A DNA stretch of 64,000 nt from positions 15,996,001 through 16,060,000 of the forward strand of contig OZ024747.1 in the NCBI GenBank assembly GCA_964016885.1, read 5' to 3'. Positions 1 to 61,370 of this stretch are shown in pieces (positions within the stretch are counted from its first letter, which is position 1; every line of letters starts with the position of its first letter). Origin of the DNA: Eledone cirrhosa (taxonomy: Eukaryota). Made by a program: the position numbers and the translations under genes. Below the pieces are notes generated by a model. That model was not told the origin of the DNA, searched no databases, and worked only from the letters and a program-made list of their open reading frames with translations.

Positions 1-3000
1 CGGGGAGGTGGGTTGGAGGTGTGGGGGTGAGAGGTGTGGGGTGTGATGTGTGGGGGTGAGGGTTAGTGGTGGTAGTAGGGTGTGTGTTTAGTGTGAGCGC
101 GTGTATATATGTGCCGGTGGGTGTGTGCGTGTGATAAGGAGGGGGGGGAGAAGAGGGGAGGGAAGGGATGTTAGTATGTTAGTTGGGGAAGAGTGGTCAG
201 AAGAGGGGTGGAGTGGAGGTGTTAGTATTGTTAGTGTGGGGTGGGCGGTGAAAAGGAGGGGTGTGTTAGTGGTGTTAGTGGGGGATAAGTGTGGGGGGAG
301 GGGGCTGGTCGAACGCTAGAGGAATAAGGGTGGGGAGTTCAGGCCGGGGGTAGTGTGGGTCTGTAAGATGAAGATAGTTCGTTGTTCGACCGTAAGGCGA
401 TGGGCGGGTGTTCCGTGGCATTGGAGTAGGCCACAGACTGTGAGATGGCGTGCGGAGTGTCCAGGGCCACCAAAGTGGCGGGCGATGGGGGAACTGCCCC
501 CGAGACGAATATCCCGGAGGTGCTTCGTGTAGGTCCGCCAGGCGACGTCCCGTCCATCCGACATAAGTCGCGCAGCGACGTCCGTAGACTAGGTTGGAGG
601 AGGTGCAGCGGAAGGCATGCCGGACCGAGAGAGAGTGGCCGTTGGGACCCTGGAAGGTGGTGGTGTTGGTGATGTGGGGACAGGTGTTGCAGCGAGGCCT
701 AGAACAGGGAAAGGAACCGGGGGAGGGACAGAGCGTGGGTTGGGGGGTAGGGAGCTGTGGACGAGGAGGGTGCGGAGATTGCGTGCGCGTTTGAAGGAGG
801 GGAGTGGTGGGTTGGGAAGATGTGGGAGGTGGAGGGGTCGGACTGGAGGCATCGGAAGAGGCGGCAGATGGTGCGGTGGAGGGGTAAGGTGGAGGGGTGG
901 TAGGTGATGGGGAAGGGGAGACGGTGGGTGGGTGTGCGGTGGCGTGGGGTGAGGGTGGTGGAGCGGGAGACAGCACGGGCACGGGTGACAGCGGTGTAGA
1001 CGAGATAGGGGTGTAGACAGCGGTGTAGACGAGACAGGATCCAATGGCTGACTAGGGAAAGGGCCTGGGACTCGAAGTCAGCATCACGGCTACAGAGGCG
1101 GCGGATCCTGAGAAGTTGGGAGTAGGGAATGGAGTGTTTAGTGTGGGTGAGGTGGGAAGAGGTGAAGTCGAGGTAAGAGTGGGAGTCGGTGGGTTTGAAG
1201 AAGGCGGAGGTGACGAGGGAGTGGTGGGAGGGGTCGAAGGCGACGGAGATGTCTAAGAATTGGACGTGGGTGGTGGAGATAGAGGTGGTGAAGTGGGGGG
1301 AGGGGTGGAAGGAGCAGAAGAAGGAGAGAAAGGAGTCGAGCTGTTCTCGGGTGAGGGTCGTGGCTCCGATACAGTCGTCAATGTAACGACCGTACAGTTC
1401 GGGCGTGGTGCCGGTGTACTGGGCAAAGATTTGGGCCTCAACATGGCCAACAAAAAGGTTGGCATAGTTCGGGCCCATTCTTGTGCCCATGGCTAACCCC
1501 GTGACCTGTTGGTAAAACTCACCCGAGAAGGAGAAACAATTTAGGGTGAGGACCAGCTCGGCGAGGCGAAGGAGGGTGGAGGTGGAGGGAATGTGGGAGG
1601 GGCGAAGGTCGAGGTAGTGTTTGAGGGCGTGAAGGCCGTCGGCGTGAGGGATGACTGTATAAAGGGACTTGATGTCTAGGGTGAAGAGGAAGGGCTGTGG
1701 GCCGGGTAGGTAGGTGAAGGAGTCGAAAAGGCGCTGGGCGTGGTTGGTGTCGGAGATGTGGGAGGGGAGGGTGGTGACAAGGGGGGCGAGGAGGGAGTCG
1801 AGAAAGGCGGAGATGAGTTCGGTGGGGCAGTTGCAAGCGGAGACGATGGGGCGGCCGGGGTTATCGGGTTTGTGGAGTTTGGGGAGGAAGTAGATGGTGG
1901 GGGTGCGGGGGGTGCGGACGATGAGGTGGGAAGCGGTGGGGGGGAGGAGGGAGGAGGCGATAAGGTCTTTGATGGTGGAGGAGACTTGTTGTTGGTAGAG
2001 GGGGTGGGATCGGGGGGTAGAGGGCGGTAAAAGAGGGGTTACAGAGCTGCCTGAGGGCTTCGGCCGTGTAGAGGTCCGCGCGTCATACCACTACGGCCCC
2101 TCCCTTGTCCACTGGTTTGATGACGATGTCATCTCGGCTACGGAGGGAGCGGAGAGCGAGGAGTTCGCCCCGTGAGATATTGTGCCGTTTGGAACGGTGG
2201 CGGAAGTCGAAACGATTTACTGCGCTACGGCTGGCATCGACGAAGGCGTCCAGGGTGCTAAATTGCCCTGGGGCCGGCGTCCAAGAAGATGGTCGTCGGC
2301 CCAGGGCGAGAAACGGCTCTGGGGCGTCCGGAGCCGGTGGCGTTCGGCTGAAATGTGCCTGCAGCTTAGTGCGTCGCACGAATCGCTCGACTTCCGTTCG
2401 GGTGCGGAACTCGTCGCTGTGCGGAGTGTGGGGTATGAAGCGAAGGCCTCTACTAAGGAGTGAGTGCTCAGGTGCAGAGAGGGGTAGGTCAGGGGGTATG
2501 GTGACAACAAGGGGTGGGGTTTGGGGGTTGGGGGGTATGGGGATGGACGGGTGGTTGTGGATGGGGGGGGGTGTAGCTTGCGGGCTTTTTGGAGCTGAGG
2601 AACGAGAAGAGGTTGTGGTTGAGGTTGTGGATGAAGGAGCGGATGGCTTGGGAGAGGAGCGGGTGGCAGGTGGAGTAAAGGCGGAGGAGGGTGGGGGTCA
2701 GTTGGTGGTCAAGTAGGCGGAGGGTGGAACGGGAGGCGCGGATGGAGTTGCGCATCAGGAGGCGTGAGGATCGGGTGAGGATACGTTGCGTGGAGGGGGA
2801 AGCGGCGGGGGAGGGATGGAAGTGTAGACGGAAGCCGAGGGGGATAAGGTGGAGGCGGAGGCAGTGGCTGAGTAAATGGATGTGGCTGGAGTGCCGGGTT
2901 TTGGCGAAGAGAAGGTAGGAGAGTTGAAGGGCGGAGGGGAGATAGCAGGGTGGGAGGAGGGGGGTGAGGAAAAGTTTGAGGCGATTGTGTAGTTGGTGGA

Positions 3001-3575
3001 GAAAGGATCTCAGGTTGGGCATGATGGGCGTTGGGTGAAAGCAGGGGGAGGGATGAGAGGGCAGGTGTGTGAAGCGGGGTGGAGTGAACGAAGGGGTGAG
3101 TGCGAAGGATAGGCAGAGACGGGGAAGGGAAAATGAAACAGAAAAACGTAGGGAGGGGGGAGTAAACACAGGAAAATTAAAGACAAAAAATCATAAAGGT
3201 AAAAACACAGGCGATCGTGAACAAAAAATCATAGAAATACAATTGTAAGAACACAGGCAAAGAATCTTAATGTGGGCATGGCCGGATGAGGAAGAGAAAT
3301 CAGCAATGAGTAAGGGTTGGGTCATGGAGGTGGTGTTCTGGGTGGGGGATTAAAGATGGGGAAGGGGTTGAGTGTTGAATCAAAGTAGGTGATCTTGAGG
3401 GAAGGGTCACCATCTTTCTACGCTAGAATAGGTTAGATGGAGGAGGAATTGGGGATGTGAATTGGCCCCCAACCCCTAAGTGGCAAGGCATATCGGTAAG
3501 TGGAGACCTAAAATTGTTGCTAAACATCTCTGCATGTTTCATCCCACTCATATGGGCAGGTCAGCTATAGTACAG
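1..3575 (-). mobile_element. Penelope-like retroelement (probably Neptune-type), near full length, 3' end runs off the window
   Basis: Minus-strand translation gives PLE motifs DDIVIKPVDKGGAVVV, YFLPKLHKPDNPGRPIVS, LFTLDIKSLYTVIPH, MGTRMGPNYANLFVG, YGRYIDD, KPTDSHSYLDFTSSH and SIPYSQLLRIRRLCS. These are followed by the Cys linker FPCSRPRCNTC and a degenerate GIY-YIG (NLVY...YVGWTGRRL...HF...H...PGLN). The 5' end abuts a (CA)/(TA) tract. Confidence 0.93.
316..3169 (-). pseudogene. PLE reverse transcriptase + GIY-YIG endonuclease ORF, disrupted
   Basis: Split over ORF-track pieces 2489-3169, 2083-2379, 699-1490, 275-982 and 316-564. There is a TGA after GGAVVV, frameshifts, and a local duplication at about 986-1040. 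Confidence 0.88.
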
Positions 3576-3604
3576 TATATCACACACACATATATATATA
3601 TATA

Positions 3605-3673
3605 TAGGAACGAGTAGGACTCCGACAGCTGAGCTCAAGCCGTTTCGACGCCTAATTCTGGACTCTAATTCTG

Positions 3674-3677
<4 letters not shown>
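3605..3677 (-). mobile_element. Family A short-arm fragment between (TA)n tracts
   Basis: Matches 19061-19121 and 55310-55367 (GGAACGAGTAGGAC...CTGAGCTCAAGCCGTTTCGAC). Confidence 0.85.
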
Positions 3678-3711
<34 letters not shown>

Positions 3712-3970
3712 ATATATATATATGAACTATAAATTAAATACTTAGTTTCTATGTAATCAAGAGACTTATGTGTATAACAGATACGAAGTACTCAGATAAT
3801 AATATTTATCTCCAGTATTATGATAATATCATTTATCTGATGAGGGCATGCTAGATTTATGTTACACATACATTTCTGCATCTCTAAATATATATGATGA
3901 AATAAATAGAGAAGATATCAAGTATATAATCTATCGTTTAATACTATTATTATTATAGCAATAGCAAAAG

Positions 3971-4160
3971 GGCGGTGGATTGGCAGTATCGGTAGAGGGC
4001 CGGACGCCATGCTTTCCAGCATAGTTACGTCCCTTTACGATCTGGGTTCAAATCCTGCCGAGGTTGACTTTGCCTTTCATCCTTACGGGGTCGATAAAAT
4101 AAAGTACCAGTAATGCACTGGGTATTTGCTGGCCTTGTGCCTAAAGTAGAAACAATTATT
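3971..4160 (+). mobile_element. tRNA-headed SINE (octopod OR-like family)
   Basis: A-box-like TGGCAGTATCGG, B-box GGTTCAAATCC, core CTTTGCCTTTCATCCTTACGGGGTCGATAAAATAAAGTACCAG and an ATT tail. More than 10 copies occur in the window. Confidence 0.88.
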
Positions 4161-4340
4161 ATAGCAATAGTTATACTTATATATATAAATATAAATAAGA
4201 TAAGGGTAATGATAAGTATCTAGTATCTCAATGTAAAATATCAGATATACTACAGAGCAGAAATACAACATAAACAACAATGAAATTGTGTTTAAGGCAT
4301 TTAGTTGCTTTACGATCGTTATATATATGTATATATATAT

Positions 4341-4481
4341 AGAAAAATAGTCAGGACCCCGACGGCTGAGCTCCGGCCGTTTCAACAGCTAGTTCTTTTC
4401 CTATTACCCTCTCTACTACCTATAATATCTAGTTCTCTGGTTCGTTAAGTTCCATCTGGTTCCTTACCACACTCCTTTCGT
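4341..4481. mobile_element. Family A copy (inverted short arm + 3' tail) in (TA)n
   Basis: The left part is the reverse complement of the HHR 3' half. The right part is the family A tail ending CCTTTCGT-(TA)n. Confidence 0.75.
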
Positions 4482-6840: not shown

Positions 6841-7043
6841 GCATATATATAAAATATACTGTATATGTGGGTGTCCATGCCTGTGTTTATGTTTTATGTT
6901 TACATAAAATAAAAAAGATCGTTAAAATAATTACTTCATTTGAGAATAATATAAAATAAAATAGAAACTGGGCTTGCCATGATCAACAACATTCGATGGA
7001 GGTTGTATCCTTGCATGACTAACATTCTAATGAGCGAAAAACA

Positions 7044-8233
7044 GTATAAGAATATGTGTTTCTATTTTTGGCACAAGGCCAGCAATTATCACAGTGCATT
7101 ACTGGTACTTTATTTTATCGACCCCGTCAGGATAAAAGGCGAAGTTAACTTCGGCCGGATTTGAACTCAGATCATAAAGGGCCATAACTCTTTGCTGCAA
7201 AGCATGGCGTCCGACCCTTACCGATACTGCCAATCCACCGCCCAATTATTAGTAATAATTGTTTCTACTTTAGACACAAGGCCAGCAATTATCCCAGTGC
7301 ATTACTGGTACTTTATTTTATCGACCCCGTAAGGATGAAAGGCAAAGTTAACCTCGATGGGATTTGAACTCAAACCATAAAGGGCCGTAACTCTTTGCTG
7401 CAAAGCATGGCGTCCGACTCTACCGATACTGCCAATCCACCGTATAAGAATATTTGTTTCTATTTTTGGCACGAGGCCAGCAATTATCCCAGTGCATTAC
7501 TGGTACTTTATTTTATCGAGCCCGTAAGGATGAAAGGCAAAGTTAACCTCGACAGGATTTGAACTCAAACCATAAAGGGCTGAAACTCTTTGCTGCAAAG
7601 CATGGCGTCCGACCCTCTCTACTGATACTGCTAATCCACCGTATAAGAATATTTGTTTCTACTTTTGGCACAAGGCCAGCAATTATCCAGTATTACTGGT
7701 ACTTTATTTTATCGAGCCCGTAAGGACGAAAGGCAAAGTTAACCTCGACAGGATTTGAACTCAAACCATAAAGGGCTGAAACTCTTTGCTGCAAAGCATG
7801 GCGTCCGACCCTCTCTACTGATACTGCTAATCCACCGTATAAGAATATTTGTTTCTACTTTTGGCACAAGGCCAGCAATTATCCAGTATTACTGGTACTT
7901 TATTTTATCGAGCCCGTAAGGATGAAAGGCAAAGTTAAACTCGACAGGATTTGAACTCAAACCATAAAGGGCTGAAACTCTTTGCTGCAAAGCATGGCGT
8001 CCGACCCTCTCTACTGATACTGCTAATCCACCGTATAAGAATATTTGTTTCTACTTTTGGCACAAGGCCAGCAATTATCCAGTATTACTGGTACTTCATT
8101 TTATCGAGCCCGTAAGGACGAAAGTCAAAGTTAACCTCGACGGGATTTGAACTCAAACCATAAAGGGCCGTAACTCTTTGCTGCAAAGCATGGCGTCCGA
8201 CCCTCTCTACTGATACTGCTAATCCAAGAATAT
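7044..8233 (-). repeat. Head-to-tail array of six SINE copies (last four at about 196-199 bp period)
   Basis: Units start at about 7044, 7256, 7442, 7641, 7837 and 8033. AAGAATAT is present at both outer ends. Confidence 0.9.
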
Positions 8234-11908: not shown

Positions 11909-12099
11909 TCTATATATGTGTCTATGTATGAATGTATGAATAAGGAGAAAAAACAGAAACATCTCAGGAAGTATCTCCAGCTCAAAAATGAAATTTTAAG
12001 CATGAATCCTTCACTAATTTTTTTTATTTATTCCCGATTCCTCATTAATCACACACTTAACGTGTGTTTATGAAAGGGATATCGATTCAGTATTATATA

Positions 12100-12375
12100 A
12101 TAATTGTTTCTACTCTTGGGACAAGGCCAGCAATTAGCCAGTACATTACTGGTACTTTATTTTATCGCCGTTAAATCAGCAATGTATTTATGTTTATTTA
12201 TAGAATATAATTGTTACTACTTTTGGCACAAGGCCAGCAATTACCCAGTACATTACTGGTGCCTTATTTTATCGACCCCGTAAGGGTGAAAGGCAAAGTT
12301 AACCTCAGCGGGATTTGAACTCAGATCGTAAAGGGACGTAACTATGCCGGAAAGCATGTCCACCAATCTACCACC
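12100..12375 (-). mobile_element. OR-like SINE plus duplicated 3' fragment
   Basis: Reverse complement of 3971-4160. Confidence 0.8.
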
Positions 12376-12678
12376 TTGTAATTCATATGATTATGGTTAG
12401 CACAAAATAATTACAGCGCTATCAAAGTAACATTTGCTGAGCATTTTTATATATGCATTGATATATTTCAATTTAGATTTATGCTTATGGATATGCAATA
12501 ATATGGACTGGGGTCCGGTATCTTAATGTATATTACATTTGGAGGAGATATAACTTCGAAGAACCTTGATGTGTGCGTAAATTACATCTATCCTTTAATA
12601 AAAATACTCATATTTAAAAAAATATTGTTTTCTATAATATTTCATTTAATAGAAAAGCCGAATTTATCATAAATTTAT

Positions 12679-12787
<109 letters not shown>

Positions 12788-13166
12788 TAACACACACACA
12801 AAAAAAATAGCACATAATAATTTATGCAAAAACACTCGTATATAAATAAAATGGTGTGCATCTCCAGAAGATTAAAAAATGTTTTTCATTATTAGAATAC
12901 CTATACATGAAATTAACATCAAATGTACTAAATGTCACAAAAAGAACCACTGTATGTGAAATCTGACACATTGAAATACAGGTACGTTTAATTTGGCTAT
13001 GGGGAAAGAGGCTGCTCAAGTTGTTACAGAGATCTCATGGTTGTAAGGCGAATTCTGACCACGACTGCATTCAAATACGTGCACATAGAACTATACCTAT
13101 GCATATGCACACACATAAATACAAATATAAACACACACATGCTCACATTCAATGTTAAGATGTAAA

Positions 13167-13462
13167 TTCTTCTTCTTCTTCTTCTTCTTCTTCTTCTTCT
13201 TCTTCTTCTTCTTCTTCTTCTTCTTCTTCTTCTTCTCCCCCCTCCTCCTCCTCCTCCTCCTCCTCCTCCTCCTCCTCCTCCTCCTCATCATCATCATCAT
13301 CATCTTGCTGAATCCCCAAGAGAGAACAACCGAGAACAACCGAGCTCATGGATGTTATCCAAACATCTTGCTCCTGGTCTGCTGCTGGTCTTTGCCTAAA
13401 AATCTGTCGAGCGATTCTTTTCTTAGACATCTTAACTAGATGTCCGTAGTACTGCAGCATGA
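13167..13462 (-). mobile_element. RTE-type LINE 3' fragment with (GAT)(GAG)(GAA)n tail
   Basis: LQYYGHLVKMSKKRIARQIF is homologous to 33090-33480. Confidence 0.65.
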
Positions 13463-14463
13463 ATATTCCATCGACTGTGTTATGGCTGGGGCAAAAATAA
13501 CACTGTCAATCAAATAGAATGAACTCGACAATGTTGCTACACTTCTTTCCCAGCATAGACATTGTCGGAGAGCTTTAACACAGATTACTCAATAATTAGT
13601 GCTTCTCTGTTTGAAAATTCTCACCCACCATTGATGTTGCTTTGGAACCTTTCCTGAGATCTAGACTACTCGAACCCATTACTGTTCCAGAATCTACTTT
13701 CTCTATTTAAGACGTTTAACATCTCGGAGAGAATTTAGAGAGGAAACCTGATAATATCTAGCCATTAACTTTTGGCCATCTCACCTAGTTTCTGCTCCTT
13801 ACCTATAAGGGTTGTAACGTGACTGTTGCTTATTGGTAATATTTGCACCCGCTAGACAATTCTTTTGGTCGCTTGATGCCCAAATGTTTTCGTACATCCC
13901 ACTTCTCGCAGAGCAGAGTTGTTCTGCTAGAGAATGGGTAGTTGGTTTGCGGTGGCGTTAGGCCCAAAAGATATGAGGGATATTTTCCACACAATTAAAA
14001 AAGAATAACGCGATTAAAAACAACAATATATCCTAGAATATATCGAATATCAAAAGCTACTGAAGCAAAACACATCAACCTCAGAAGTATGAAAATAAAA
14101 TGAAACGAACACGCAATATATATAATTTAAATTTAAATTCAATACCAGATTTAAATTATAAAAAAAATATGTTATATAGCTTTGTACAATAGGGTGTTTG
14201 TTTTTAAAAATATATATACATAACATGTATATACATCAAAGCAAACACCTAGATATGATAAAAACGAAACGATATAAAACCACAACTTACAACAAATGAC
14301 ATAAGTGTGTAGATAAATATTTATTTTATTTGTTTTTTCCATCACAGAGATTTGTTTGAAGATTCCTTGTGATTAAGATTGATCTGGTGGTGTAACAGAA
14401 TGTTGAGTTCAAAAGATGTCTTAGATATTTAGACACAACAAAATCTCTCTCTCTCTCTCTCTA

Positions 14464-14524
<61 letters not shown>

Positions 14525-14668
14525 CTCTCTCTCTCTCTCTCTCACACTCTCACTCTCTCTCTCTCACTCGCTCTCTCTCTCCTTCTCTCTCTGAGGAAGT
14601 CTTGAAGGAAACATCTGTTTAAATGCCTCACTCTCTTTGTTCTTATATATATCACTATGCGTGTGCGC

Positions 14669-15127: not shown

Positions 15128-15128
<1 letters not shown>

Positions 15129-15330
15129 GTAGGTCCCGGGTTGAGTCGGGGATAACCACAGTAAGTAAGGTACTCAATACATGGCAGAGTAAAATTTTTT
15201 TATTTTATAGAAGGAGCTTCTACAGGACTAGTACTGTTTCATTCAGATGAAATCTTCAGGAAGCTTCCTGAAGATTTCATCTGAATGAAACAGTACTAGT
15301 CCTGTAGAAGCTCCTTCTATAAAATAAAAA
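15128..15330. mobile_element. Family B: palindrome 15197-15330 (centre AAG|CTT at 15263/15264) plus tail, in (TA)n
   Basis: Perfect reverse-complement arms, with tail 15128-15196 on the minus-strand arm. Confidence 0.92.
15262..15312 (+). ncRNA. Type I hammerhead ribozyme (family B); mirror at 15215-15265 minus
   Basis: AGCUUC-CUGAAGA-U UUC AUCU GAA U-GAAA-CAG UACUAGUC CUG-UA-GAAGCU. GUA triplet; ACUAGU palindrome in loop III. Confidence 0.88.
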
Positions 15331-15433
15331 TAAAAAAATATATATATATATATATATAGACGTACCTACGTATATACGTATATATATACATATATATATA
15401 TAGAGAGACATGCATATATATATATATATATAT

Positions 15434-15958
15434 ACAAATAAAATTATCGAGAATCGAAACTTCGGCCCACGAAATAATGAAAAACAATCTCCGAAATGTG
15501 CGGCAAAGTGCTCAATGGTTCGGATGAACCAGAGCTATAACTAACGTTTAATACCAAACACACTGAGACGATGCTTAAACAATCATTCGCACAGCCAAAA
15601 AATACGATCAAGTAATTCGGGCCAAACAAATAAAAATATACATGATTGAAAAATTTACCCGGACCGCCTGGAAAGGTGCTAAAATCCAGCATTTGGGTTT
15701 CTGCGACTCCAAAATCAGGTACCGTCCGCCTACATAAAAAATGTCCGGCTTCTGGTAAGATGATGAACAAGGAATTCGCTTTTTCAACAGGCTTTTAGTT
15801 CAATAATACAGGGGAAGACTTTTACTGAATCCACGTGGGGACCAGCAAGGGAGGCAACCCCTATATTAGGCGAATGAATTCAGTTGTGTATATTATTGTA
15901 AGAATACAAAATATCACAAATCGAATTAGAGTTCTCAACAGACGGGTTAAAGTTAACA
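15434..15958 (-). mobile_element. Family N dispersed copy between (TA)n tracts
   Basis: Diverged reverse complement of the 606-bp unit at 60481-61356. Confidence 0.8.
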
Positions 15959-18057: not shown

Positions 18058-18172
18058 TTGATGATTTCTGTAGAATTCAACAGTTCTAGTTCTGTAGAAG
18101 CCATTTCTATATTAAAACTGATATTTACACTCTACTAATGTATTGAGTACCTTACTTACTGTGGTTACCTCC
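18058..18172 (+). mobile_element. Family B copy with degenerate HHR and tail
   Basis: ACAGTTCTAGTTCTGTAGAAGC...GTATTGAGTACCTTACTTACTGTGGTTA-(TA)n. Confidence 0.7.
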
Positions 18173-18191
18173 TATATATATATATATATAT

Positions 18192-18335
18192 TGTAGGGGG
18201 TGTGGTAAGGAACCACGTGGACCATAACGCACCAGAGTACTCAATACTTAGGGTAGTAGAGTGGGTAATAGGAAAAGAGTCACGACCGAGTTCGGAGCTA
18301 CCTGATAAGGTGATTCTGTTTATTTAAAACTCCGT
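18192..18335 (-). mobile_element. Family A tail-containing copy in (TA)n
   Basis: GTGGTAAGGAACC...GGACCATAACGCACC...GTAGTAGAGTGGGTAATAGG, as in 55240-55310. Confidence 0.75.
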
Positions 18336-18853
18336 TATATATATATTTCACTGAGGACTATCAGTTAAGATAGCCTCAGCTATATATATATATTTATATC
18401 TGGTGTGTAAACAAAAACAGTAAGATATAGATAGTGACTCAGATAGTGAGATGCAGTGGAAAAGAAGGCAAAATAAATAGTAATATAATTGGGAATAATA
18501 ATTCAATAAAATGATTTCTCTTCCGTTCCAAATTTCGTTACTTTCTATTTCAAACCTAGTTTCAGTTGAAATTATAATTCTCATTTGCGGCCAAAGTGTA
18601 ACGATCAAGATGATAAATTTCAACTGCAGAAGTAGGACAAACGGCAAAATTATGTTAAACTGCAAAGCATTATAAAACACATTAATTCAGAGCTCTGATT
18701 GATTTATTAAAATCTAAATTATTTGTTGCCGATAATTATCTAAATACATAAATAAAACATACTCGCATGTGTCAGACAGATGTATCAAATCTCAGATGTG
18801 TTGGCCCAAAACGCGTGGCAATATATATATATATATTATATTATATATATAAA

Positions 18854-18882
<29 letters not shown>

Positions 18883-18885
<3 letters not shown>

Positions 18886-19000
18886 ATATAGAAATGACTT
18901 CTACAGGACTAGAACTGTTTCATTCGGGAGAAATCATCATCTGCTATGTATTGAGTACCTTACTTACTGTGGTTATCCTCGATTGAACCCGGGATAATCT
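18883..19000. mobile_element. Family B copy (inverted short arm + tail)
   Basis: Minus-strand HHR 3' half joined to the plus-strand tail. Confidence 0.75.
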
Positions 19001-19010: not shown

Positions 19011-19060
<50 letters not shown>

Positions 19061-19064
<4 letters not shown>

Positions 19065-19263
19065 AACGAGTAAGACCCCGACGGCTGAGCTCAAGCCGTT
19101 TCGAAGGCTAGTTCTGGACTATTTTAGTCCAGAATTAGCCGTCGAAATGGGTTGAGATCAGCCGTCGGGGTCTTACTCGTTCCTATTACCCACTCTACTA
19201 CCCTAAGTATTGAGTACTTTGGTGCGTTATGGTCCACCTGGTTCCTTACCACTTTTCCTTCGT
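19061..19263. mobile_element. Family A asymmetric hairpin insertion
   Basis: Short arm 19061-19121, long arm 19125-19263 including tail 19186-19263, with (TA)n on both sides. Confidence 0.9.
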
Positions 19264-19355
<92 letters not shown>

Positions 19356-19585
19356 TGAGTGTCTGTGTGTTTGTGTGTGTGAGCGTGTCTAAGACATTTT
19401 TTTAATGCATAACTAAATTTTATTGGTGTCGCTGTGGAAATGTAAAAAGATGTAAACATAATTCATCTACATTTATACATCGAAATCAAATGTTCAGTTC
19501 GCTCATCAGCTGTATATTTTACCATATACATAAAACGTTGATATCTTGACTGTAATTTTGTGTTGTTGCATGTGAATGATTTCGC

Positions 19586-19662
<77 letters not shown>

Positions 19663-19666
<4 letters not shown>

Positions 19667-19854
19667 AACAAGTAGGACCCCGGCGGCTGAGCTCAAGCCG
19701 TTTCGACGGCTAATTCTGGACTAGAATTAGCCGTCGAAACGGCTTGAGCTCAGCCGTCGGGGTCCTACTCGTTCCTATTACCCACTCTACTACCCTAAGT
19801 ATTGAGTACTTTGGTGCGTTATGGTCCACCTGGTTCCTTACCGAATTTCCTCCG

Positions 19855-19855
<1 letters not shown>
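19663..19855. mobile_element. Family A asymmetric hairpin insertion
   Basis: Same two 3' termini as 19061-19263 but a different central junction. Confidence 0.9.
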
Positions 19856-19970: not shown

Positions 19971-20020
19971 AGCTTCCTGATGATGTCTCACGAATAAAAC
20001 AGTTCTAGTCCTGTAGAAGC
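19971..20020 (+). ncRNA. Family B hammerhead, probably inactive (GAAA mutated to AAAA)
   Basis: AGCUUC-CUGAUGA...UAAAACAGUUCUAGUCCUGUA-GAAGC. Confidence 0.65.
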
Positions 20021-20122
<102 letters not shown>

Positions 20123-20161
20123 GTATAAATATATTCTCTCACTCTCTCTCTCTATATATAT

Positions 20162-20243
<82 letters not shown>

Positions 20244-20258
20244 GATACTTGAACAGTC

Positions 20259-20309
20259 AGCTTCCTGATGATTTTTCACGAATGAAACAGTTATAGTCCT
20301 GTAGAAGCT
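20259..20309 (+). ncRNA. Family B type I hammerhead, core intact
   Basis: AGCUUC-CUGAUGA-stem II-GAAA-CAG..CUG-UA-GAAGCU. Confidence 0.8.
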
Positions 20310-20311
20310 TT

Positions 20312-20385
<74 letters not shown>

Positions 20386-20991: not shown

Positions 20992-21515
20992 ACACACACT
21001 ATAGATGAGCGACATATTAATGCACAAATATTTTGCTAGCATTTTGGAAATTAAGATATCAAAAAACAAAAGTAGACATCAGTGAAAAAAAAAATTGAAT
21101 TCATAGCTTCTGTAATTTCTGAGATACCAGAAATCAATCGTCGAAACAAACATGAAAAAAAAAGCAATACCACCTAATTTTCTGGTGTTTGGATAATTTA
21201 GATGTGTGGAATGATGAAGTGGATGATCATGATGCCGCTCAGGTATTCAATAAAAAATAGTGATATTGCATGTTATTCTTTTTTTATACGTGCATGTTGT
21301 AAATATGATTTGTTTCATGTAATCAATTTTGTGCTAAAAATAATCCCCCCGCCCCTCACCCCATAGCACTCAACTACATCCTCGGCTAACTTAGAATACC
21401 CTCTATTTTTATAAGCTCAACAGAAATACAAATACAATATAGAGTTATTAACTCATATTGATACCCTGCAATTAACAAGCTGAAAGTATAAATACTGAGC
21501 ATTATAATATTAATA

Positions 21516-21712
21516 TGGCGGTGGATTGGTACTAATGGTAGAGGGTCGGACACCATGCTTGGACGCATAGAGTTACGGCCCTTTCCAATCTGAGTTCAAA
21601 TCCCGCCGAGGTTAACTTTGCCTTTCATCCTTACGGGGTCGATAAAATAAAGTACCAGTAATACACTGGGATAATTGCTGGCCTTGTGCCAAAAGTAGAA
21701 ACAATTATAATA
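21516..21712 (+). mobile_element. OR-like SINE
   Basis: Matches 3971-4160. Confidence 0.85.
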
Positions 21713-21857
21713 TTAATATGTGCAGAAGTAAAGACAGAAAATTCTACGTCTAAAATTACGAGGGTAGATTTCACCTCACCACAAATGTTATATATATTTA
21801 AATTAATTGCAGGGTTTCAATATGAGTTAATAACTCAATATTTTATATCTATATCTA

Positions 21858-22465: not shown

Positions 22466-22468
<3 letters not shown>

Positions 22469-22884
22469 AGGGTGTTAAAGTTTGCTTGAAGCATTGTGAA
22501 ATGTGTAAAAATACGTATTTAAGAAAGCCACAACAATGCAAAGGGAAATCTCGAGGTAGGAAGTGAAATATAGATAGGAAAAACAGGTGAAAGTGAAAAT
22601 TGAGAGAGACAAAGATGAAAACAAAACGGCATTCCTGTCTTAACGACATCACAACTTTCTCCGCTTGGCCTGTTTCCCCCCTTTTGGAACTTTTCCCCCG
22701 TTGATGGGCGTGAGCCCGAAATATTGGGATTAAAACTCTACTACGGTAACCCTTCTACCTTTGTTTTGTTTTCATCTTTGTCTCTCTCAATTTTCACTTT
22801 CACCTGTTTTTCCTATCTATATTTCACTTCCTACCTCGAGATTTCCCTTTGCATTGTTGTGGCTTTCTTAAATACGTATTTTTA
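22466..22884. mobile_element. Family D inverted repeat (arms 22506-22627 / 22763-22884) plus tail, in (TA)n
   Basis: 122-bp reverse-complement arms and a 40-bp tail. Confidence 0.88.
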
Positions 22885-28956: not shown

Positions 28957-31420
28957 CAATAATGATAACGACAACAACAACAATAATAATATACATATAT
29001 ATATATATACACACACACGCACACCCATAAACATATCTATACACACACACACACACACACGATAGCAACTAACAGCGCTGCGATCGAATGTGGCATTTTA
29101 GCCCAGCCAATGATCTAAAATGTCTTGCACAGAGTCGGCAACCAAAACATTCACTGGGAATAGTCGGCTGTGGTTGGAGTTCATGTACTTTTGCATGTCG
29201 TTTGAGCCCTCCTGCTGATTTAGATTCCTTACCACATGCTTGGCAAACATGATGAGTAGCATCTCCAACAGCAGCCTGGTAGTTAACCACTGGTCTTACT
29301 TTATGACTGCGAAGATGACTTTCGAGTCCAGCTTTGCTTAGGCAGAGTCACGCACAGACCCTGCATGTCAGCACCATTGGAGGACCCTCGTCGTCTGGAA
29401 GTGCAACAACAATGCCCTTCGTCACATCGCGCTTTACTTTCTCGTATGTGATTCAAGATGCCTCAAAGGCAACTTTTCCCTCATATACAGTCTTTCTCCA
29501 TTTATTACTATCAGCAGTAATATTTTCCCATGTATCAACAGAGATGTTAGCGTCTTTCAAAGAGGTTTTCAAGGAATCCTTATACCTCTTTTTTGGCTTA
29601 TGTGGCGGTCGTTTTCCTTTAACTAACTCTCCATAAAAGAGTTTTTTTGGTATTCTAGAATCCTTCATCCTGGCAAGGTGACCACTCCAACGGAGTCGTT
29701 GCTTAAGCACAAGAGCTTCTATACTGTCACACATAGAGCTTTCCAAAATCTCGACATCAGTGAACGCCATGGACATCAGTGAACGCCATGGATCCGTCTG
29801 AGACACATCTGATGGAAACGCTCAAATTGCTAAAGGCGGTGTCGATACGTGACACAGGTCTCGCAGGCATAAAGAAGAGAAGAGAGCACGCGTGCCTTGT
29901 ACACCTTTACCTTTGTCTTCTTGCATATGTCTCGCCGACCCCAGAGTCGCCTTTCTAGCTTTCCGAAAGCATCACTTGCTTTCCTAATCCTACATGAGAT
30001 TTCACTATCAAGGTTGCTGTATCGATTGACAGTGCTTCCCAGGTAGACAAACTGATCAACCACACCAAGTCGTTTACCATACACATAGATATTCGGTTCA
30101 GTGTACTGCTTACCAGGGGCAGGTTGGTACATGACGACGGTTTTCTTGAGACTGACAGTCAATCCTAGGGCAGTGCAAGCGTCAGAAAATGCATTCAAAA
30201 TGTGCTGCATATCACTCTCTGTGTGCGCTACAAGATCGCAATCATCTGCAAACAAGAGGTCTCTTATGATTGATGTAAATACTTTTGTCTTTGCAGCAAA
30301 GCGCCTGATGTTAAACATGCTGCCTGAGATTCGATATCGGATGTAAACACCATGCTCGCAATTCCTGAATGCAATACAGAAAACCATTGCAAAGTATATG
30401 GCAACCAGGGTCGGTGATGGAATATCCCCCCGTTTCACTCCATTTTTTACTGAGATAGGCTCCGACATGTTACCTCCGACATTAACCCAAGTCTTCATGT
30501 GGTCATGGAAAGACCTAACTAAAGCAAGGAACTTATCAGGGCAACCAAGTTTCTGGAGAACCTTCCATAATGCATTTCTGTTAACAGTATCGAAAGCTCT
30601 TGTCAGATCGACAAAAACCTGATACAGATCCAAACCTTCTTCCATGCACTTCTCCTGGAGCTGTCTAGCTGAGAAGATCATATCAGTAGTGTCGCGTCCA
30701 GCACGAAAACCAGATTGACTTTCAGGAAGAACACAATCTGCAATGTGTGTCAGCAGACGGTCCAGATGCACTCTACATAAAACTTTCCCTACGTCAGAAA
30801 GCAATGATATACCTCTGTAGTTCCCACACTCATTCCTGTTACCCTTTCCCTTGTACAAGACCACCATTACTGCATCTCTCCAGTCCTCAGGTACGGATTC
30901 ATTAGCCCATATCCTGCCAAACAAAGAGTGAATATGTTGCAGGAGTCTCTCACCACCATATTGTAGGAGCTCAGCATGTATGCCATCCATACTTGGAGAC
31001 TTCCCACTGTTCAGCTTCGAGATAGCCACTGCAACCTCCACAAGCGTCGGAGGTTCTGCGAGAGCTACTTTCACAGGACTTTCTAGAATGAGATTGATGA
31101 AATCTTCATTGACGACAGACGGCTGATTCAAAAGATCATCAAAGTGCTCCCGCCACCTTCGTAGAATTCCTTGCGAGTCACGAAGAAGTTCTTTGCCATC
31201 CTTGCTGCGAATCGGTGTCACCAGAGAAGAAGACGGTCCATAAACTTCACGCAAGAGACTGTACAACAGCTTTGTGTTATTGGAATCTGACGCAGTTTGT
31301 ATCTCATCAGCCTTCTCACTCCACCACTGATCCTTCATCTGAGAAAGACTCCGCCTAACACGTGATTTTACATCCTTGAGTACCTCATGCAACGTATTCC
31401 TCTCCTGTGCTTTTGCCTAC
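28844..31420 (-). mobile_element. 5'-truncated RTE-clade LINE (BovB-like) with C-terminal C2H2 fingers and (CAT)n tail
   Basis: ORF 29830-31392 contains GNYRGISLL, LPESQSGFRAGR, VFVDLTRAFDTV, LLFADDC and FVYLGS. It continues as RLRWSGHLARM..RIPKKLFYGEL (29453-29806) and CxxC..GLKRH fingers (29069-29290). Confidence 0.93.
29830..31392 (-). pseudogene. RTE LINE reverse transcriptase (truncated, frameshifted downstream)
   Basis: 520-aa ORF with the non-LTR RT domains listed above. Confidence 0.9.
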
Positions 31421-34586: not shown

Positions 34587-34643
34587 GGATCAAGCTGTTG
34601 AAACGGCCGGAGCTCAGCCATCGGGGTCCTGACTCTTTCCTAT
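34587..34643 (+). mobile_element. Family A fragment
   Basis: GAAACGGCCGGAGCTCAGCC..CGGGGTCCTGACTCTTTCCTA, ending at the short-arm terminus. Confidence 0.7.
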
Positions 34644-42271: not shown

Positions 42272-43975
<1,704 letters not shown>

Positions 43976-45040: not shown

Positions 45041-45334
45041 TATATATGCATACAGATGTGAGATTTCAATTCACACCTGCTCTGAATAAATAATTAGAAC
45101 CCCAAGGATGTTGTTTTATAAGGTGAAATGAAGATCGACTTGACCAACGTCACTGGTATATAGATATTGTACAATATCTTGTTATCTTCACACTTGCTTG
45201 CTTTTAATGATAATATCTGGAGGTTAATTACTGAAACCTAAATATGATTCAAGTTCCAAATAATTTTCGTTATGATACAATAGAATGGTATAATAAGATA
45301 TAACACACAATAATAAAATATAATATATTATAAT

Positions 45335-46590
45335 AATTGTTTCTACTTTTGGCACAAGGCCAGCAATATATTATAATAATTGTTTCTACTTTAGGCACAA
45401 GGCCAGCAATTACCCAGTGCATTACTGGTACTTTATTTTATCGACCCCGTAAGGTGAAAGGCAAAGTTAACCTCGGCGGGATTTGAACTCAGATCGTAAA
45501 GGGACGTAACTATGCTGGAATGATATAATATAACATGATATGATAATTCATACTTACATGTATAAATTTATAGATACTCATTTACATTCTAAGTTCAGAT
45601 ACCCGAGTGTTAAACTTCGATGGGTCGATAAAATAATGTACATGTAAAGTATTGGATTGATGTTATCGACATTTCCCTTTGCTAAAACCTTGCTGGCCTT
45701 GTGTCTAAATTAGGAATGTCTAAATTAAACTTATATTCTATAAAGGGCGGTGAATTTGCAGTATCGGAAGAAGGTCGGACACCATGCTTTTCAGCATAGT
45801 CCCATCCCTTTACGGTCTGAGTTCAAATCCTGTCGAGGTTAACTTTGCCTTTCATCCTTACGGGGTCGATAAAATAAAGTACCAGTAATGTACTGGATAA
45901 TTGCTGGCCTTGTGCCAAAAGTAGAAACAATTATAATCTATAAATATACATAAATATATTGCTGATTTAACGTGTTAAAGACTTTCCAAGTGGGCAAACA
46001 TGTTTTGTTTTTAAATTGTTATTGTACATATTGGAATTGACAATGAGAACATTTTAACATTTCATCTGTTGAGTTGGAAATTAATATCTGTTTAAGAAAT
46101 GTAGAATGTAATTATATAAACACATTAACCAATTTAGTCAATATAAATGATCGATCACAACATATTAGCTGTCCATATCGGTATGATATTTGGTTATTTG
46201 TTTAATTTGGATGGCGCTTGTTGCTTGAACAAAGTAATTTATAAGAGACCCACCCAGCGAGACAGTAGTCAAGTTTTATTGAACCAATTAGGGAGTCTCT
46301 GCGAGCTTAATTTTTCTGTTGGAAATAGGTGGTAAATCTCTCTGAAATCGGACTATTATTAAACAAAACAAGGCGGTGGATTGGCAGTATCAGTAGAGGG
46401 TCGGACGCCATGCTTTGTAGCATAGAGTTACGGCCTTCTATGATCTGAGTTCAAATCCCACCGAGGTTAAGTTTGCTTTTCATCCTTACGGGGTCGATAA
46501 AATAAAGTACCAGTCACGCACTGGGATCGATATAATCGACTTTCCCCTCTCCCCAAATTACTGGCCTTGTGTCTATATAAGAAACCATTA
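45335..46590. mobile_element. Cluster of OR-like SINEs (45335-45520 minus; 45590-45715, 45745-45935 and 46371-46590 plus)
   Basis: Each matches the SINE at 3971-4160. Confidence 0.82.
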
Positions 46591-51468: not shown

Positions 51469-51518
51469 CCATTCCGAGCTGAAGATCCGCTAAGGTGAAA
51501 CAATTGTTCTCGGTATGG
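51469..51518 (+). ncRNA. Minimal type I hammerhead in PLE 3' UTR/pLTR
   Basis: CCAUUCCGAG-CUGAAGA-UCC GCUAA GGU-GAAA-CAAUUG-UU-CUCGGUAUGG. Confidence 0.82.
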
Positions 51519-51634
51519 TGAACTAACTGTTGTGTAACCACTTCTACCTAACTCGTCCCTTGGACTGAGTGCTCTACCACTACGGATATTACCTTCCAGT
51601 GTTCCGCCACTATATATATACATACATATATATA

Positions 51635-53549: not shown

Positions 53550-53641
53550 ATATATATATATATATATATACCTTATGAAGAGAGAAGAAACATTTAGATA
53601 TAATTAGTAATAAAATGTATCATACCTAAACTGCTCCTAAA

Positions 53642-53733
53642 ATCCTCGACTACGTAGTTTCGTGGCATAAACAAAAACAATATATCATAAAGATATAGAG
53701 TCCTTGCGAGGTCTGCCGACTTATCAAGAGGAT
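53642..53733 (-). ncRNA. Type I hammerhead, U3-A8 variant (family K copy 1)
   Basis: AUCCUC-UUGAUAA-GUCGGCA...UGCCAC-GAAA-CUACGUAG-UC-GAGGAU. Confidence 0.82.
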
Positions 53734-54235
53734 ACCTCATTTTACTAGTCTCAAGAACGCGTCTACACGACGTGAGAAAGAATCCCAAAAGGCGGAGGGG
53801 GAGATAGTCACGCGATATAACGGTCGAGAAACAGAGCTAAGCCTCTTATAACCCCGAAGAAAATACCACGGAGGCGGAGGGGGTATTCATATCGAGGCCG
53901 CAGAAGAGTGGTGAAGAAGGCGAGAAGTATGAGTAATGGAAGCCTTCCAGCTGTCCCCACACTTTAAAGATTGCTCGACCAGAGGGAGTTATTAACAATA
54001 TATTTAGAAACACACAGATACATGCGGACACACACATATATACATGAATGTATCCGCACCCAACTGTGAGTTAAGGGTGCCAACTTCACCGATGTTGCTC
54101 AATGAATGACTGGGACAGACCAATTCGGTTGAACTAGACTGAACCAGTATCAGAGTTAAAAATACCTTATGAAGAGAGAAGAAACATTTAGATATAATTA
54201 GTAATAAAATGTATCATACCTAAACTGCTCCTAAA

Positions 54236-54327
54236 TTCCTCGACTACGTAGTTTCGTGGCATAAACAAAAACAATATATCATAAAGATATAGGGTCCTTG
54301 CGAGGTCTGCCGACTTATCAAGAGGAT
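54236..54327 (-). ncRNA. Type I hammerhead, U3-A8 variant (family K copy 2)
   Basis: Same motif 594 bp away. Confidence 0.82.
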
Positions 54328-54531
54328 ACCTCATTTTACTAGTCTCAAGAACGCGTCTACACGACGTGAGAAAGAATCCCAAAAGGCGGAGGGGGAGATA
54401 GTCACGCGATATAACGGTCGAGAAACAGTCATTCATTGAGCAACATCGGTGAAGTTGGCACCCTTAACTCACAGTTGGGTGCGGATGCATTCATGTATAT
54501 ATGTGTGTGTCCGCATGTATCTGTGTGTTTC

Positions 54532-54626
<95 letters not shown>

Positions 54627-55160: not shown

Positions 55161-55229
<69 letters not shown>

Positions 55230-55320
55230 CGAAGGAAATGTGGTAAGGAACCAGGTGGACCATAACGCACCAAAGTACTCAATACTTGAGGTAGTAGAGT
55301 GGGTAATAGGAACCAGTAAG

Positions 55321-55414
55321 ACCCCGACAGCTGAGCTCAAGCCGTTTCGACGGCTAATTCTGGACTAAATGAAAATTTATCCTGGTATTTAAATAGCCGA
55401 TCTTCTCAAGGGGT
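55321..55414 (-). ncRNA. Family A hammerhead (U3-A8), long-arm copy
   Basis: Reverse complement of 56237-56330. Confidence 0.8.
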
Positions 55415-56236
55415 AATTCCATATATGGTCAAAGTGATTGTCAAAAATCAGTAGTAATTCTGTGGTTGCAAATTAGTAGGGGAGATGGTGGCTAAACCTG
55501 CCAGTAGGAGAAAGAGGGGAGGGGGTGGAGTAGACCCAATCAAGTGTTGGTAGTGCCAGCTACAGCTGGGCATGAGGTCAAAGAAGATACAGGGGAGGGG
55601 GAGGGGGAGGAAGTCGGAACGGTAGGTAGAACAATGGGGGGTAGAAATATATAGGAAAGAAAAAATACTGAGAGTGAAGAAAAGCAAATAGGTGTAAAGA
55701 AAAAAGTAAAGTAAATTAAATTCTACGACCTAGGTCTCTAGCTATTGTTAGGCTAGAATAAATAAATAAATAAAGAAAGAAAGAAGTAAAGAAAGAAATA
55801 AAGAAATAACGAAATAAGTAAAAGAACTAGGTGGGACGGATAGGCAAGGACCCTTTTGAGAGGTATAAGTACGTAAATGATACGGTGACGGGTCAACAAA
55901 AGGGGCCAAAATACTAAAGAGACTACTACGAAATAAACAATAAAGGTTTCCATCCCGGGCACAATGCCAGCAACCACCCAGTGCAGCAAAGTGAACTAGT
56001 ACGAGATAATAATTCTGAGTCCCGAGAAAAATATATACTAATGCTAACTCTAAAAGATCTAAAACAAGCTACATGAAAGTTCGTACGAAGTAAAGGTAGA
56101 ATACGGAAAAATAAATTCAGAATCCACCCCTCCCCTCTTTCTCCTACTGGCAGGTTTAGCCACCATCTCCCCTACTAATTTGCAACCACAGAATTACTAC
56201 TGATTTTTGACAATCACTTTGACCATATATGGAATT

Positions 56237-56330
56237 ACCCCTTGAGAAGATCGGCTATTTAAATACCAGGATAAATTTTCATTTAGTCCAGAATTAGCCG
56301 TCGAAACGGCTTGAGCTCAGCTGTCGGGGT
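56237..56330 (+). ncRNA. Family A type I hammerhead, U3-A8 variant
   Basis: ACCCC-UUGAGAA-GAUCGGCUA...UAGCCGUC-GAAA-CGGCU UGAGCUC AGCUG-UC-GGGGU. Confidence 0.82.
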
Positions 56331-56346
56331 CTTACTGGTTCATATA

Positions 56347-58232: not shown

Positions 58233-58884
58233 CGAGGTGTGTCAGAAAAGCTCCAAGACTGATGTCACAAAAGATTTATTTCAAACCCAAACTTCACACT
58301 AAGAGTTTTCTCCTTCAAAGTAATCCCCCTGGACTCTAATGCATTTTTCGATCCTTTTCTGCCACGCTTGCATGCACTCCCGGAAGGATTCTTCCGGCAT
58401 CCTCCGCAGTTCCGTCGTGACGGCCTTTTTGATGTCGTCCACGTCTTCAAAACGGGCCCCCTCCGGGTCATACTCGAAGATCCAGCTCATTTGCCATAAG
58501 TCGAACAGTCCTGGTTGTTGAGGGCATTCCGCTCCTGGGGTCATCTTCCACGTCCTGGCGTACTTCTTTAAACCTCTTTCACCACTCAGAAACACGTGAG
58601 CGTGACATCGTCTCATCTCCATACACTTGCTGCATCAATCCCAGTGCTTCTGACGGAGTTTTCCCCAATCGTACCAGAAAGTTTGTTCGTTGCTCTGTCT
58701 TCATTGCTTGACAACCTGAAACAGAGGTATAACATTATGAAGAAAAATGTTTGATCGCGCAGAGAGCTAAGATTACAATTACATACTCCAGGGGGTACTT
58801 TGACGGAGTAACTCTTAGTGTGAAGTTTGGGTTTGAAATAAATATTTTGTAGCATCTGTCCTGGAACTTTTTTGACACCCCTCG
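58233..58884 (-). mobile_element. Internally deleted mariner DNA transposon
   Basis: Long TIRs CGAGGTGTGTCAGAAAAG... / ...CTTTTTTGACACCCCTCG with TA flanks. Transposase remnants read YGDETMSRSRVSEWRKRFKE..DVEDDPRSG and RFEDVDDIKKAVT..L..WQKRIEKCIRVQGDYFE. Confidence 0.9.
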
Positions 58885-60001: not shown

Positions 60002-60209
60002 TGTAGGAGGTGAGTTTTATTGTAGTACAATAAAGCAATGCAGATATCGGATATGTTGATTTAAAACTGCACTATCCACAAGTGTTTTTAACCTTCATAT
60101 CACGTCCTCCTCTATTATGTGATGAAAACACAAATGTTATTGCATGATGATATTTGTTTTTGAAATGCGAATAATAAAATACATGTAACTCAATTAATCA
60201 TCTTTTGAT

Positions 60210-60212
<3 letters not shown>
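60002..60212. mobile_element. Family C copy (inverted tail + short arm), HHR degenerate
   Basis: Matches 5576-5625 and then 5830-5995. CUGA is changed to GUGA. Confidence 0.85.
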
Positions 60213-60480: not shown

Positions 60481-60482
<2 letters not shown>

Positions 60483-61356: not shown

Positions 61357-61370
61357 ATATAAATATATAT

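What the first reader, a model, noticed from the sequence alone, without database searches (positions are those of the whole stretch)
19061..19855. Two fixed 3' termini but variable centres: signature of priming on both target strands
Seen: in family A the short arm ends at ...TTCCTA|TATA (3605, 19061, 19663; similarly 4341, 34643, 56341), while the long arm runs about 80 nt further to ...CGT|TA (4481, 19263, 19855, 55228). The central junction differs in every copy. The same two-end rule holds for family C (5576 vs 60002) and B (15128 vs 18883). The internal ends coincide with TA/TAT/TATAT in the element. Inference: both 3'-OH ends of a break in self-complementary (TA)n prime reverse transcription at two defined UA-containing RNA sites, and the two truncated cDNAs are then joined. 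This would be a programmed form of twin priming.
Basis: partly seen in the sequence, partly recalled or inferred. Interest (0 to 1): 0.82.

Follow-up and report, generated by a model that had tools for sequence, protein, structure and literature searches.

The report
Penelope stubs primed on both strands
These small back-to-back repeats sitting in TA microsatellites carry hammerhead-ribozyme motifs and one longer 'tailed' end, the known layout of cut-down ends of Penelope-like jumping genes, and their lopsided shape likely records two copying starts, one on each strand of the cut DNA.

Summary
Family A arms end at two sites 80 nt apart. In two public read sets 3,351 and 2,885 reads break into (TA)n at the short site. 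The repeats are 3' pLTR+'tail' stubs of Penelope-like elements (PLEs): families A, B and C carry type I hammerhead motifs, and a decayed RT/GIY-YIG PLE lies in the window. Head-to-head arms with a one-sided tail are the published PLE layout. Two RT start sites and extension of both target strands were shown in vitro for one PLE (PMC11167929). The scan noted similar stubs in other genomes. Corrections: centres are not scattered (7 of 11 family A 5' ends lie in 10 nt), family B ends are less fixed, and UA at the long site could not be tested. What is added: 14 of 16 inverted insertions have a tail on one side only; three copies and six read joints have non-overlapping arms, which simple fold-back self-priming (PMC3846280) does not predict; short ends favour TA microhomology (P=6e-4). 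Best reading: twin priming at two fixed RNA sites. It is inferred, not shown. New member of a known kind.

The parts
19027..19062 (.). (TA)n target tract, left of insertion 1
19063..19121 (-). Family A short (tailless) arm: 3' half of the hammerhead motif plus 17 nt; its 3' end faces the left TA tract
19123..19263 (+). Family A long arm: 3' half of the hammerhead motif (predicted cut after 19166) plus tail
   Evidence: position mapped
19184..19263 (+). 80-nt tail between the two fixed 3' ends; starts with TAT; homologous to the family B tail
   Evidence: A vs B18059 z 6.4, 0 of 300 shuffles
19587..19664 (.). (TA)n target tract, left of insertion 2
19665..19723 (-). Family A short arm of insertion 2
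19723..19855 (+). Family A long arm of insertion 2 (tail 19776-19855); 1-nt overlap with the short arm
4342..4481 (.). Family A (subfamily) insertion with non-overlapping arms: short arm 4342-4396 (-), long arm 4394-4481 (+) that is essentially tail only; 3-nt junction overlap
55229..56122 (-). Longest family A long arm (894 nt, non-coding); complete hammerhead motif at 55414-55321
56123..56341 (+). Its 220-nt short arm (99.5% identical); complete type I hammerhead motif with U3-A8 core at 56237-56330
3607..3676 (-). Solo family A short arm between two TA tracts, next to the 5' end of a different PLE
34593..34643 (+). Solo family A short arm
18197..18278 (-). Family A long arm without a family A short arm (tail plus a few bases)
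15128..15337 (.). Family B palindrome: tailed arm left, tailless arm right, a hammerhead motif on each arm, centre on AGCT
18883..19000 (.). Family B insertion with non-overlapping arms (short arm 18883-18939, partial-tail long arm from 18940)
19972..20315 (+). Two solo family B short arms (19972-20023, 20259-20315) with hammerhead motifs; the scan scored the second, the first has a changed GAAA
5576..5991 (.). Family C palindrome with an 89-nt tail on the left; hammerhead-like motif on both arms
60003..60211 (.). Family C insertion with non-overlapping arms (partial tail 60003-60053, short arm 60051-60211)
337..3022 (-). Decayed PLE ORF (DKG, RT, C-x4-C-x2-C, GIY-YIG); context only, not linked to family A
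58233..58884 (-). Internally deleted mariner-type DNA transposon with symmetric ends at TA; serves as internal control
   Evidence: HTH_48 E 2.8e-4, below the curated cut-off

Best explanation
The repeats are hammerhead-motif-bearing, head-to-head stubs with a tail on one arm only, inserted in (TA)n, most likely the 3' ends of Penelope-like retroelements, and they likely form when the element's protein nicks both target strands and primes two cDNAs on one RNA at two fixed sites on either side of the tail. Steps: (1) shown: two fixed 3' ends, a one-sided tail, (TA)n flanks and hammerhead motifs. (2) Inferred, and shown in vitro for another PLE: the RT/GIY-YIG protein nicks and extends both strands and starts inside the RNA. 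(3) Inferred: one 3'-OH takes the distal site and the other the proximal site, helped by 2-7 nt of TA pairing; because (TA)n is symmetric, the asymmetry would come from the RNP. (4) Inferred: the distal cDNA either stalls in the tail or at the proximal primer (non-overlapping arms) or displaces the proximal cDNA (palindromes). (5) Inferred: both cDNAs usually stop at a family-specific point in the pLTR, probably the RNA's 5' end, and are joined by host repair with little or no microhomology. Odds: PLE origin about 0.93; independent priming on both strands about 0.7; on a single RNA about 0.5.
For: Identity: 12 hammerhead-motif hits in the window against 0-1 per shuffle in 20 shuffles; the family A motif folds as a three-way junction (energy not better than shuffles, z 0.13); the U3-A8 core is a described PLE variant (PMC4209133); a PLE ORF with RT+GIY-YIG relatives lies in the window; relatives in metagenome contigs show inverted arms, a one-sided tail and candidate TSDs (L023 14 nt, L038 10 nt) and direct hammerhead-bearing pLTRs (L002). 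Asymmetry: 14 of 16 single-element inverted pairs have a tail on one side; 11 of 11 where the tail is verified by a second copy, P=5e-4 under free 50:50 choice. Independent templating: non-overlapping arms at 4342, 18883 and 60003 and 6 read joints whose long arm ends inside the tail (55268-55306), plus 4 at the tail border; solo short and solo long arms. Common 5' stop: palindrome centres coincide with the 5' ends of solo or non-overlapping arms in A, B and C; depth falls 7- and 14-fold in contig sets beyond 55374; the Penelope transcript starts in the upstream pLTR (PMC2377424). Biochemistry: PMC11167929.
Against: No family A ORF or full-length copy was found, so the enzyme, clade and RNA are inferred. 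Rfam reported no hammerhead match (none in the 150 of 270 rows shown). Near-perfect palindromes are common and are also what fold-back predicts; non-overlapping arms could be later deletions. One read joint (55253-55304) may be tailed on both arms, and 54004-54534 is symmetric. The PLE studied in vitro primed without homology and showed no strand difference in start site. Four of 13 short ends show 0-1 nt of TA microhomology. The read sets are RAD libraries cut at AATT inside the element and come from runs sharing at most 73% of words, or only a species label, so depth and joint counts are biased. No empty site was seen.
Confidence: 0.55

Rival explanations
1. Dual priming: each nicked strand primes on its own RNA molecule (two RNPs, or a dimer holding two RNAs), still at the same two sites.
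For: Explains palindromes without strand displacement; a dimer is predicted for the PLE protein (PMC11167929); the idea is in print for L1 (PMC2837659). The two arms of 19063-19263 differ at 5 of 53 positions, as much as separate copies do.
Against: Gives no reason for the one-tail rule (11 of 11) or for long arms that stop at the proximal site (4342; joints at 55306-55312). The arms of 55229-56341 share private variants (1 difference in 53).
Confidence: 0.2
2. Self-priming or fold-back: one cDNA (or an antisense template) folds back and is copied, and the endonuclease resolves the intermediate, leaving the tail on one side. This is the published hypothesis.
For: Proposed in PMC3846280 and PMC8557442. 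Many insertions are near-perfect palindromes, and arms are often 98-100% identical.
Against: Cannot give a short arm whose sequence is absent from the long arm (3 window copies, 6 read joints) or solo short arms. The zero-spacer centre at 15263 sits on a 4-nt self-complementary word that, judged from the 20259 copy, has no flanking stem. Palindrome centres match the 5' ends of solo arms.
Confidence: 0.15
3. Short palindromic master copies are transcribed and copied whole, and the variety of centres and short ends arises later by deletion in unstable palindromes and by slippage into (TA)n.
For: 5' ends cluster. TA microhomology at short ends would also favour deletion into the tract.
Against: No two window copies share a centre. 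Deletion would also use the other TAT words in the tail (19208, 19228), which are not among the strong loose-end rows. Relatives outside microsatellites show the same one-sided tail.
Confidence: 0.08
4. MITE or fold-back DNA transposon, or an assembly artefact.
For: Inverted arms flanked by TA.
Against: Ends are asymmetric and centres not shared; hammerhead motifs are present; the real mariner-type element in the window is symmetric; joints recur in independent Illumina data.
Confidence: 0.02

Closest known systems
Insertion architecture of endonuclease-bearing Penelope-like elements (Penelope/Poseidon, Neptune, Nematis, Hydra; PMC3846280, PMC8557442)
   Same: Head-to-head 5'-truncated inverted pLTR, tail on one end only, hammerhead in the pLTR, microsatellite/AT-rich targets.
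   Different: Tails here are 41-149 nt (80 in family A) against 30-40 bp in print; most copies are ORF-less stubs; non-overlapping arms are seen; 5' ends cluster.
Poseidon_Ac in vitro (Frangieh et al. 2024, PMC11167929)
   Same: Two internal RT start sites that bound the tail; both DNA strands nicked and extended; dimer predicted.
   Different: Priming there was without homology and showed no strand bias in start site; the text searched does not link it to inverted copies. Here the proximal site is enriched for TA microhomology and the two sites are split between the arms.
L1 twin priming (Ostertag and Kazazian 2001, seen only as a reference entry; described in PMC2837659)
   Same: Two primers from the two target strands on one RNA give inverted, joined cDNAs; non-overlapping arms.
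   Different: [quoted passage not shown] Here both sites are fixed, there is no poly(A), and arms often overlap.
PLE hammerhead ribozymes (Cervera and De la Pena 2014, PMC4209133)
   Same: Type I, short helix I, long helix II, palindromic loop 3, U3-A8 core variant, pairs on opposite strands 100-700 bp apart.
   Different: Family A has a 4-bp helix III and a loop 2 of about 36 nt; most copies keep only the 3' half of the motif.

Membership tests
Penelope-like element (EN+) | Single ORF with PLE-type RT and GIY-YIG endonuclease in the same family | tested here: inconclusive
   894 nt of family A hold no such ORF; no full-length copy. A PLE ORF at 337-3022 belongs to an element not shown to be family A.
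Penelope-like element (EN+) | Hammerhead motif in the 3' pLTR | tested here: met
   Descriptor scan with shuffles and fold; Rfam gave no hit; cleavage not tested.
Penelope-like element (EN+) | Adjacent inverted 5'-truncated copy, head to head | tested here: met
Penelope-like element (EN+) | Tail on one end only | tested here: met
   14 of 16 pairs; 11 of 11 with verified tails; longer than the published 30-40 bp.
Penelope-like element (EN+) | Variable-length target-site duplication | not testable with these tools
   Hidden in (TA)n and no empty site; candidate TSDs seen in relatives of the window's RT.
Penelope-like element (EN+) | No poly(A) tail; 5' truncation | tested here: met
   depth decay.
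Neptune clade | C-terminal EN with a CX2-5CxxC motif upstream of GIY-YIG | tested here: inconclusive
   Motif present in the window's decayed ORF but not tied to family A; it is shared with Nematis (PMC8557442); no tree was built.
Naiad clade | Lack of a canonical hammerhead | tested here: not met
   Families A, B and C have hammerhead motifs; criterion from PMC8557442.
MITE / DNA transposon | Symmetric fixed terminal inverted repeats and a shared interior | tested here: not met
L1-type twin priming | Poly(A)-primed arm plus an internally primed arm, with internal deletion | tested here: not met
   No poly(A), fixed internal site, arms often overlap: it works like twin priming but is not an L1 product.

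The most novel reading that the evidence does not exclude
Penelope-like elements integrate by programmed twin priming: a protein dimer clamps the conserved tail of one RNA, each subunit nicks one strand of (TA)n and primes on its own side of the tail, and both cDNAs run off at the transcript's 5' end. This one rule would explain the inverted pLTR, the one-sided tail and the flood of mini-palindromes, and would replace the self-priming hypothesis.
Probability: 0.4. Interest if true: 0.62.

Novelty: new member of a known kind. Interest (0 to 1): 0.35.

Why it matters
How PLEs form their tandem/inverted structures and choose microsatellites is named as an open problem in PMC8557442. The stubs give countable predictions that separate twin priming, dual priming and self-priming, and an in vitro system for the test exists (PMC11167929). 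If true, a telomerase-related RT would routinely write from both ends of a break at RNA-defined sites, which also bears on RT-based genome writing. The elements themselves are ordinary PLE debris.

Tried and rejected
No whole genome is held for the window, so the requested histogram over assembled copies and the empty-site comparison could not be made; one read-laying run stood in. Rfam: no hammerhead family in the rows shown for the whole window (150 of 270 rows, mostly miRNA models on microsatellites) or for two excised motifs. A family A tail pattern found 0 matches in metagenome contigs and 0 in viral contigs. No RNA holder was listed; this is no evidence on expression. I considered the solo arm at 3607-3676 as the 5' pLTR of the neighbouring ORF and rejected it: a (TA)n(TG)n tract rather than the tail follows it, and that element has its own decayed hammerhead-like stretch near 3575-3520 (read by eye). 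The 528-aa RT at 29833-31416 looks like a LINE RT of RTE type (label from recall) and is unrelated. Ribozyme cleavage as the maker of either fixed end was rejected: the ends lie 17 and 97 nt past the predicted cut, and 5' ends cluster about 40 nt upstream of it. Microhomology at centres is not consistent. In the metagenome loci, 18 of 80 had a descriptor hit under relaxed rules, some surely chance; a TSD candidate was found for 6 of 19 inverted pairs examined, and several of these pairs are unrelated repeats. Searches for prior art: 'Penelope'+'twin priming' gave 3 papers, none about PLE structure by title or abstract start; searches found no paper proposing one site per strand. The library lacks most subscription papers, and I did not open any supplement; Figs S1-S2 of PMC11167929 may bear on the start sites.

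Full report
Setting. The window is AT-rich eukaryotic DNA with 131 (TA)n tracts; no genome is held and the host was not identified. Family A has 11 arms in 7 insertions.

Observation. Six family A arms end at the short site (four exactly at TTCC|TAT, two with local variants). Five end 80-81 nt further on (four at CGT|TA, one variant). Family C has identical long ends and identical short ends in its two copies. Family B is looser: short ends lie 8-24 nt past the predicted ribozyme cut, and one of three long ends is about 20 nt short. Laying two RAD read sets and two contig sets on the longest family A arm (55219-56122; 4 of the 21 runs listed) showed loose (TA)n ends at 55306 in 3,351 and 2,885 reads and at 55315 in 423 and 563 reads (a subfamily), with depth staying near 12,000-14,600 across the tail to the long end. 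Only 24 loose-end rows were shown and 749 weaker ones were not. The two other TAT words in the tail are not among the rows shown. The two ends are therefore real and sharp.

Corrections. Centres differ letter by letter but cluster. Seven of 11 family A 5' ends lie in reference 55361-55370, inside loop 2 of the hammerhead motif (two of the 11 positions were set by eye where subfamily divergence broke the alignment). The chance of such a cluster among 10 uniform ends was at most 3e-4. Eleven of 13 opposite-strand read joints have one side at 55356-55370 while the other ranges over 55268-55328 (15 joints shown, 2 not). Depth falls 14-fold (X2) and 7-fold (X1) just beyond this point in contigs and 34-39-fold in RAD reads, but the RAD figure is inflated by an AATT cut at 55359. 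Five of six family B arms with a ribozyme part start at or within about 7 nt of the core, and three of four family C arms start within 3 nt of each other. Junction overlap at centres is 0-4 nt and not consistent. The claim of UA at both RNA sites can be tested only for the short site: 35 nt of TA microhomology against 19.0 expected over 11 families (two extra family A copies dropped), P=6e-4; 4 of all 13 elements had only 0-1 nt.

What the repeats are. A descriptor scan gave 12 type I hammerhead hits in the window against 0-1 cores per shuffle in 20 shuffles. They include the complete family A motif (56237-56330 and its inverted twin), family B (15262-15312, 20259-20309) and family C. The family A motif folds as a three-way junction, though not more stably than shuffles, and has the U3-A8 core reported for Schistosoma PLEs (PMC4209133, part 1 of 4 read). 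Rfam's models did not report these motifs. A decayed ORF at 337-3022 (-) has DKG, RT motifs, C-x4-C-x2-C and a GIY-YIG remnant; its 95 longer homologues are mostly 810-1,100-aa RT proteins, many with a GIY-YIG hit. It is context only and is not linked to family A. Among 80 metagenome loci of its relatives, L002 has direct hammerhead-bearing pLTRs, and L023, L066 and L038 have an inverted arm, a one-sided tail and candidate TSDs. [quoted passage not shown] PMC11167929 (parts 1-2 of 4 and passages) showed in vitro that a PLE protein cleaves and extends both target strands and starts at two internal RNA sites that bound the tail. The scan has noted similar stubs in other genomes.

What the window adds. 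(1) One-tail rule. One search listed 28 inverted pairs. I dropped 12: four between separate insertions, three SINE pairs, three old pairs without TA at the arm ends, one unflanked and one nested. Of the 16 left, 14 have a tail (41-149 nt) on one side only. The two symmetric ones are a mariner-type remnant and a complex case at 54004-54534. For single-copy families the tail is only the distance to the next TA tract; in the 11 insertions where a second copy verifies the tail, all 11 are mixed (P=5e-4). (2) Non-overlapping arms at 4342, 18883 and 60003 and in six read joints: the short arm holds sequence that the long arm lacks, so it was not copied from it, unless later deletion is invoked. (3) Solo short and solo long arms. 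(4) The tails of A and B are homologous (z 6.4 and 3.2) while their ribozyme regions are not (z -0.2), which suggests the tail is the conserved cis element.

Mechanism. The simplest account is twin priming on one RNA at two fixed sites. A symmetric (TA)n target cannot tell the strands apart, so the asymmetry would come from the RNP: two active sites cannot share one start site on one RNA. The distal cDNA stalls in the tail or at the proximal primer, giving L1-like non-overlapping arms (compare PMC2837659, passages), or displaces the proximal cDNA, giving palindromes; that PLE RTs lack RNase H is recalled, not tested. Both cDNAs mostly stop at one point, plausibly the RNA's 5' end, since the Penelope transcript starts in the upstream pLTR (PMC2377424, passages); a structural block is the alternative. 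All of these steps are inferred. Against them: no family A enzyme or RNA in hand, biased reads, one possibly double-tailed joint, one symmetric case, and homology-free, strand-neutral priming in the one PLE assayed. Dual priming and the published self-priming model remain open.

Verdict. A real feature and a new member of a known kind. The twin-priming reading is a reasonable, testable extension of 2024 biochemistry that I did not find in print (open-access library only, supplements not opened). Interest 0.35.

Noticed in passing
window 337-3590 (-): Near full-length decayed PLE (RT, C-x4-C-x2-C, GIY-YIG, several frameshifts) with a decayed hammerhead-like stretch near 3575-3520; its 3' end lies outside the window.
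   Followed up: partly
window 19184-19263, 15128-15196, 18116-18172, 51515-51610: Tails of families with unrelated ribozyme regions share a motif around TGAGTAC/TGAGTGC; a similar word follows the hammerhead in L002 (about 1070) and may be chance.
   Followed up: partly
window 22467-22507 and 55045-55088: Two palindromes whose arms did not match in self-BLAST have homologous 41-44-nt tails (z 8.3).
   Followed up: partly
window 42765-43854: Large palindrome whose 72-nt centre holds an inverted copy of the last 66 nt of its own 130-nt tail; possibly a third priming event.
   Followed up: no
window 53571-54534: Complex partial tandem with two U3-A8 hammerhead motifs (53733, 54326) and a 109-nt inverted arm ending at TA on both sides; an exception to the one-tail rule.
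   Followed up: partly
window 18197-18336: A family A tail is joined head to head to an unrelated 55-nt piece that ends in the same CTCCGT|TATA letters as a family A long end; possibly a chimera of two families.
   Followed up: no
window long-arm ends: Most long ends are C-rich just before the TA tract, recalling the AC-rich start region reported in PMC11167929.
   Followed up: no
window 51474-51513, 57756-57833, 61838-61895: Further hammerhead-motif hits in other repeat families.
   Followed up: no
window 7041-8226: Six tandem copies (about 196 nt) of a SINE-like repeat that is also dispersed at 3948-4169, 12088-12372, 21501-21719 and 45328-46527.
   Followed up: no
window 29833-31416 (-): 528-aa open stretch of a LINE-type RT (RVT_1 E 3.6e-27).
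   Followed up: no
window 58233-58884: Internally deleted mariner-type transposon keeping both ends and both termini of the transposase.
   Followed up: yes
window 15435-15958 and 60481-61360: Another TA-flanked repeat with a 276-nt partial tandem duplication, as in PLE partial tandems.
   Followed up: no
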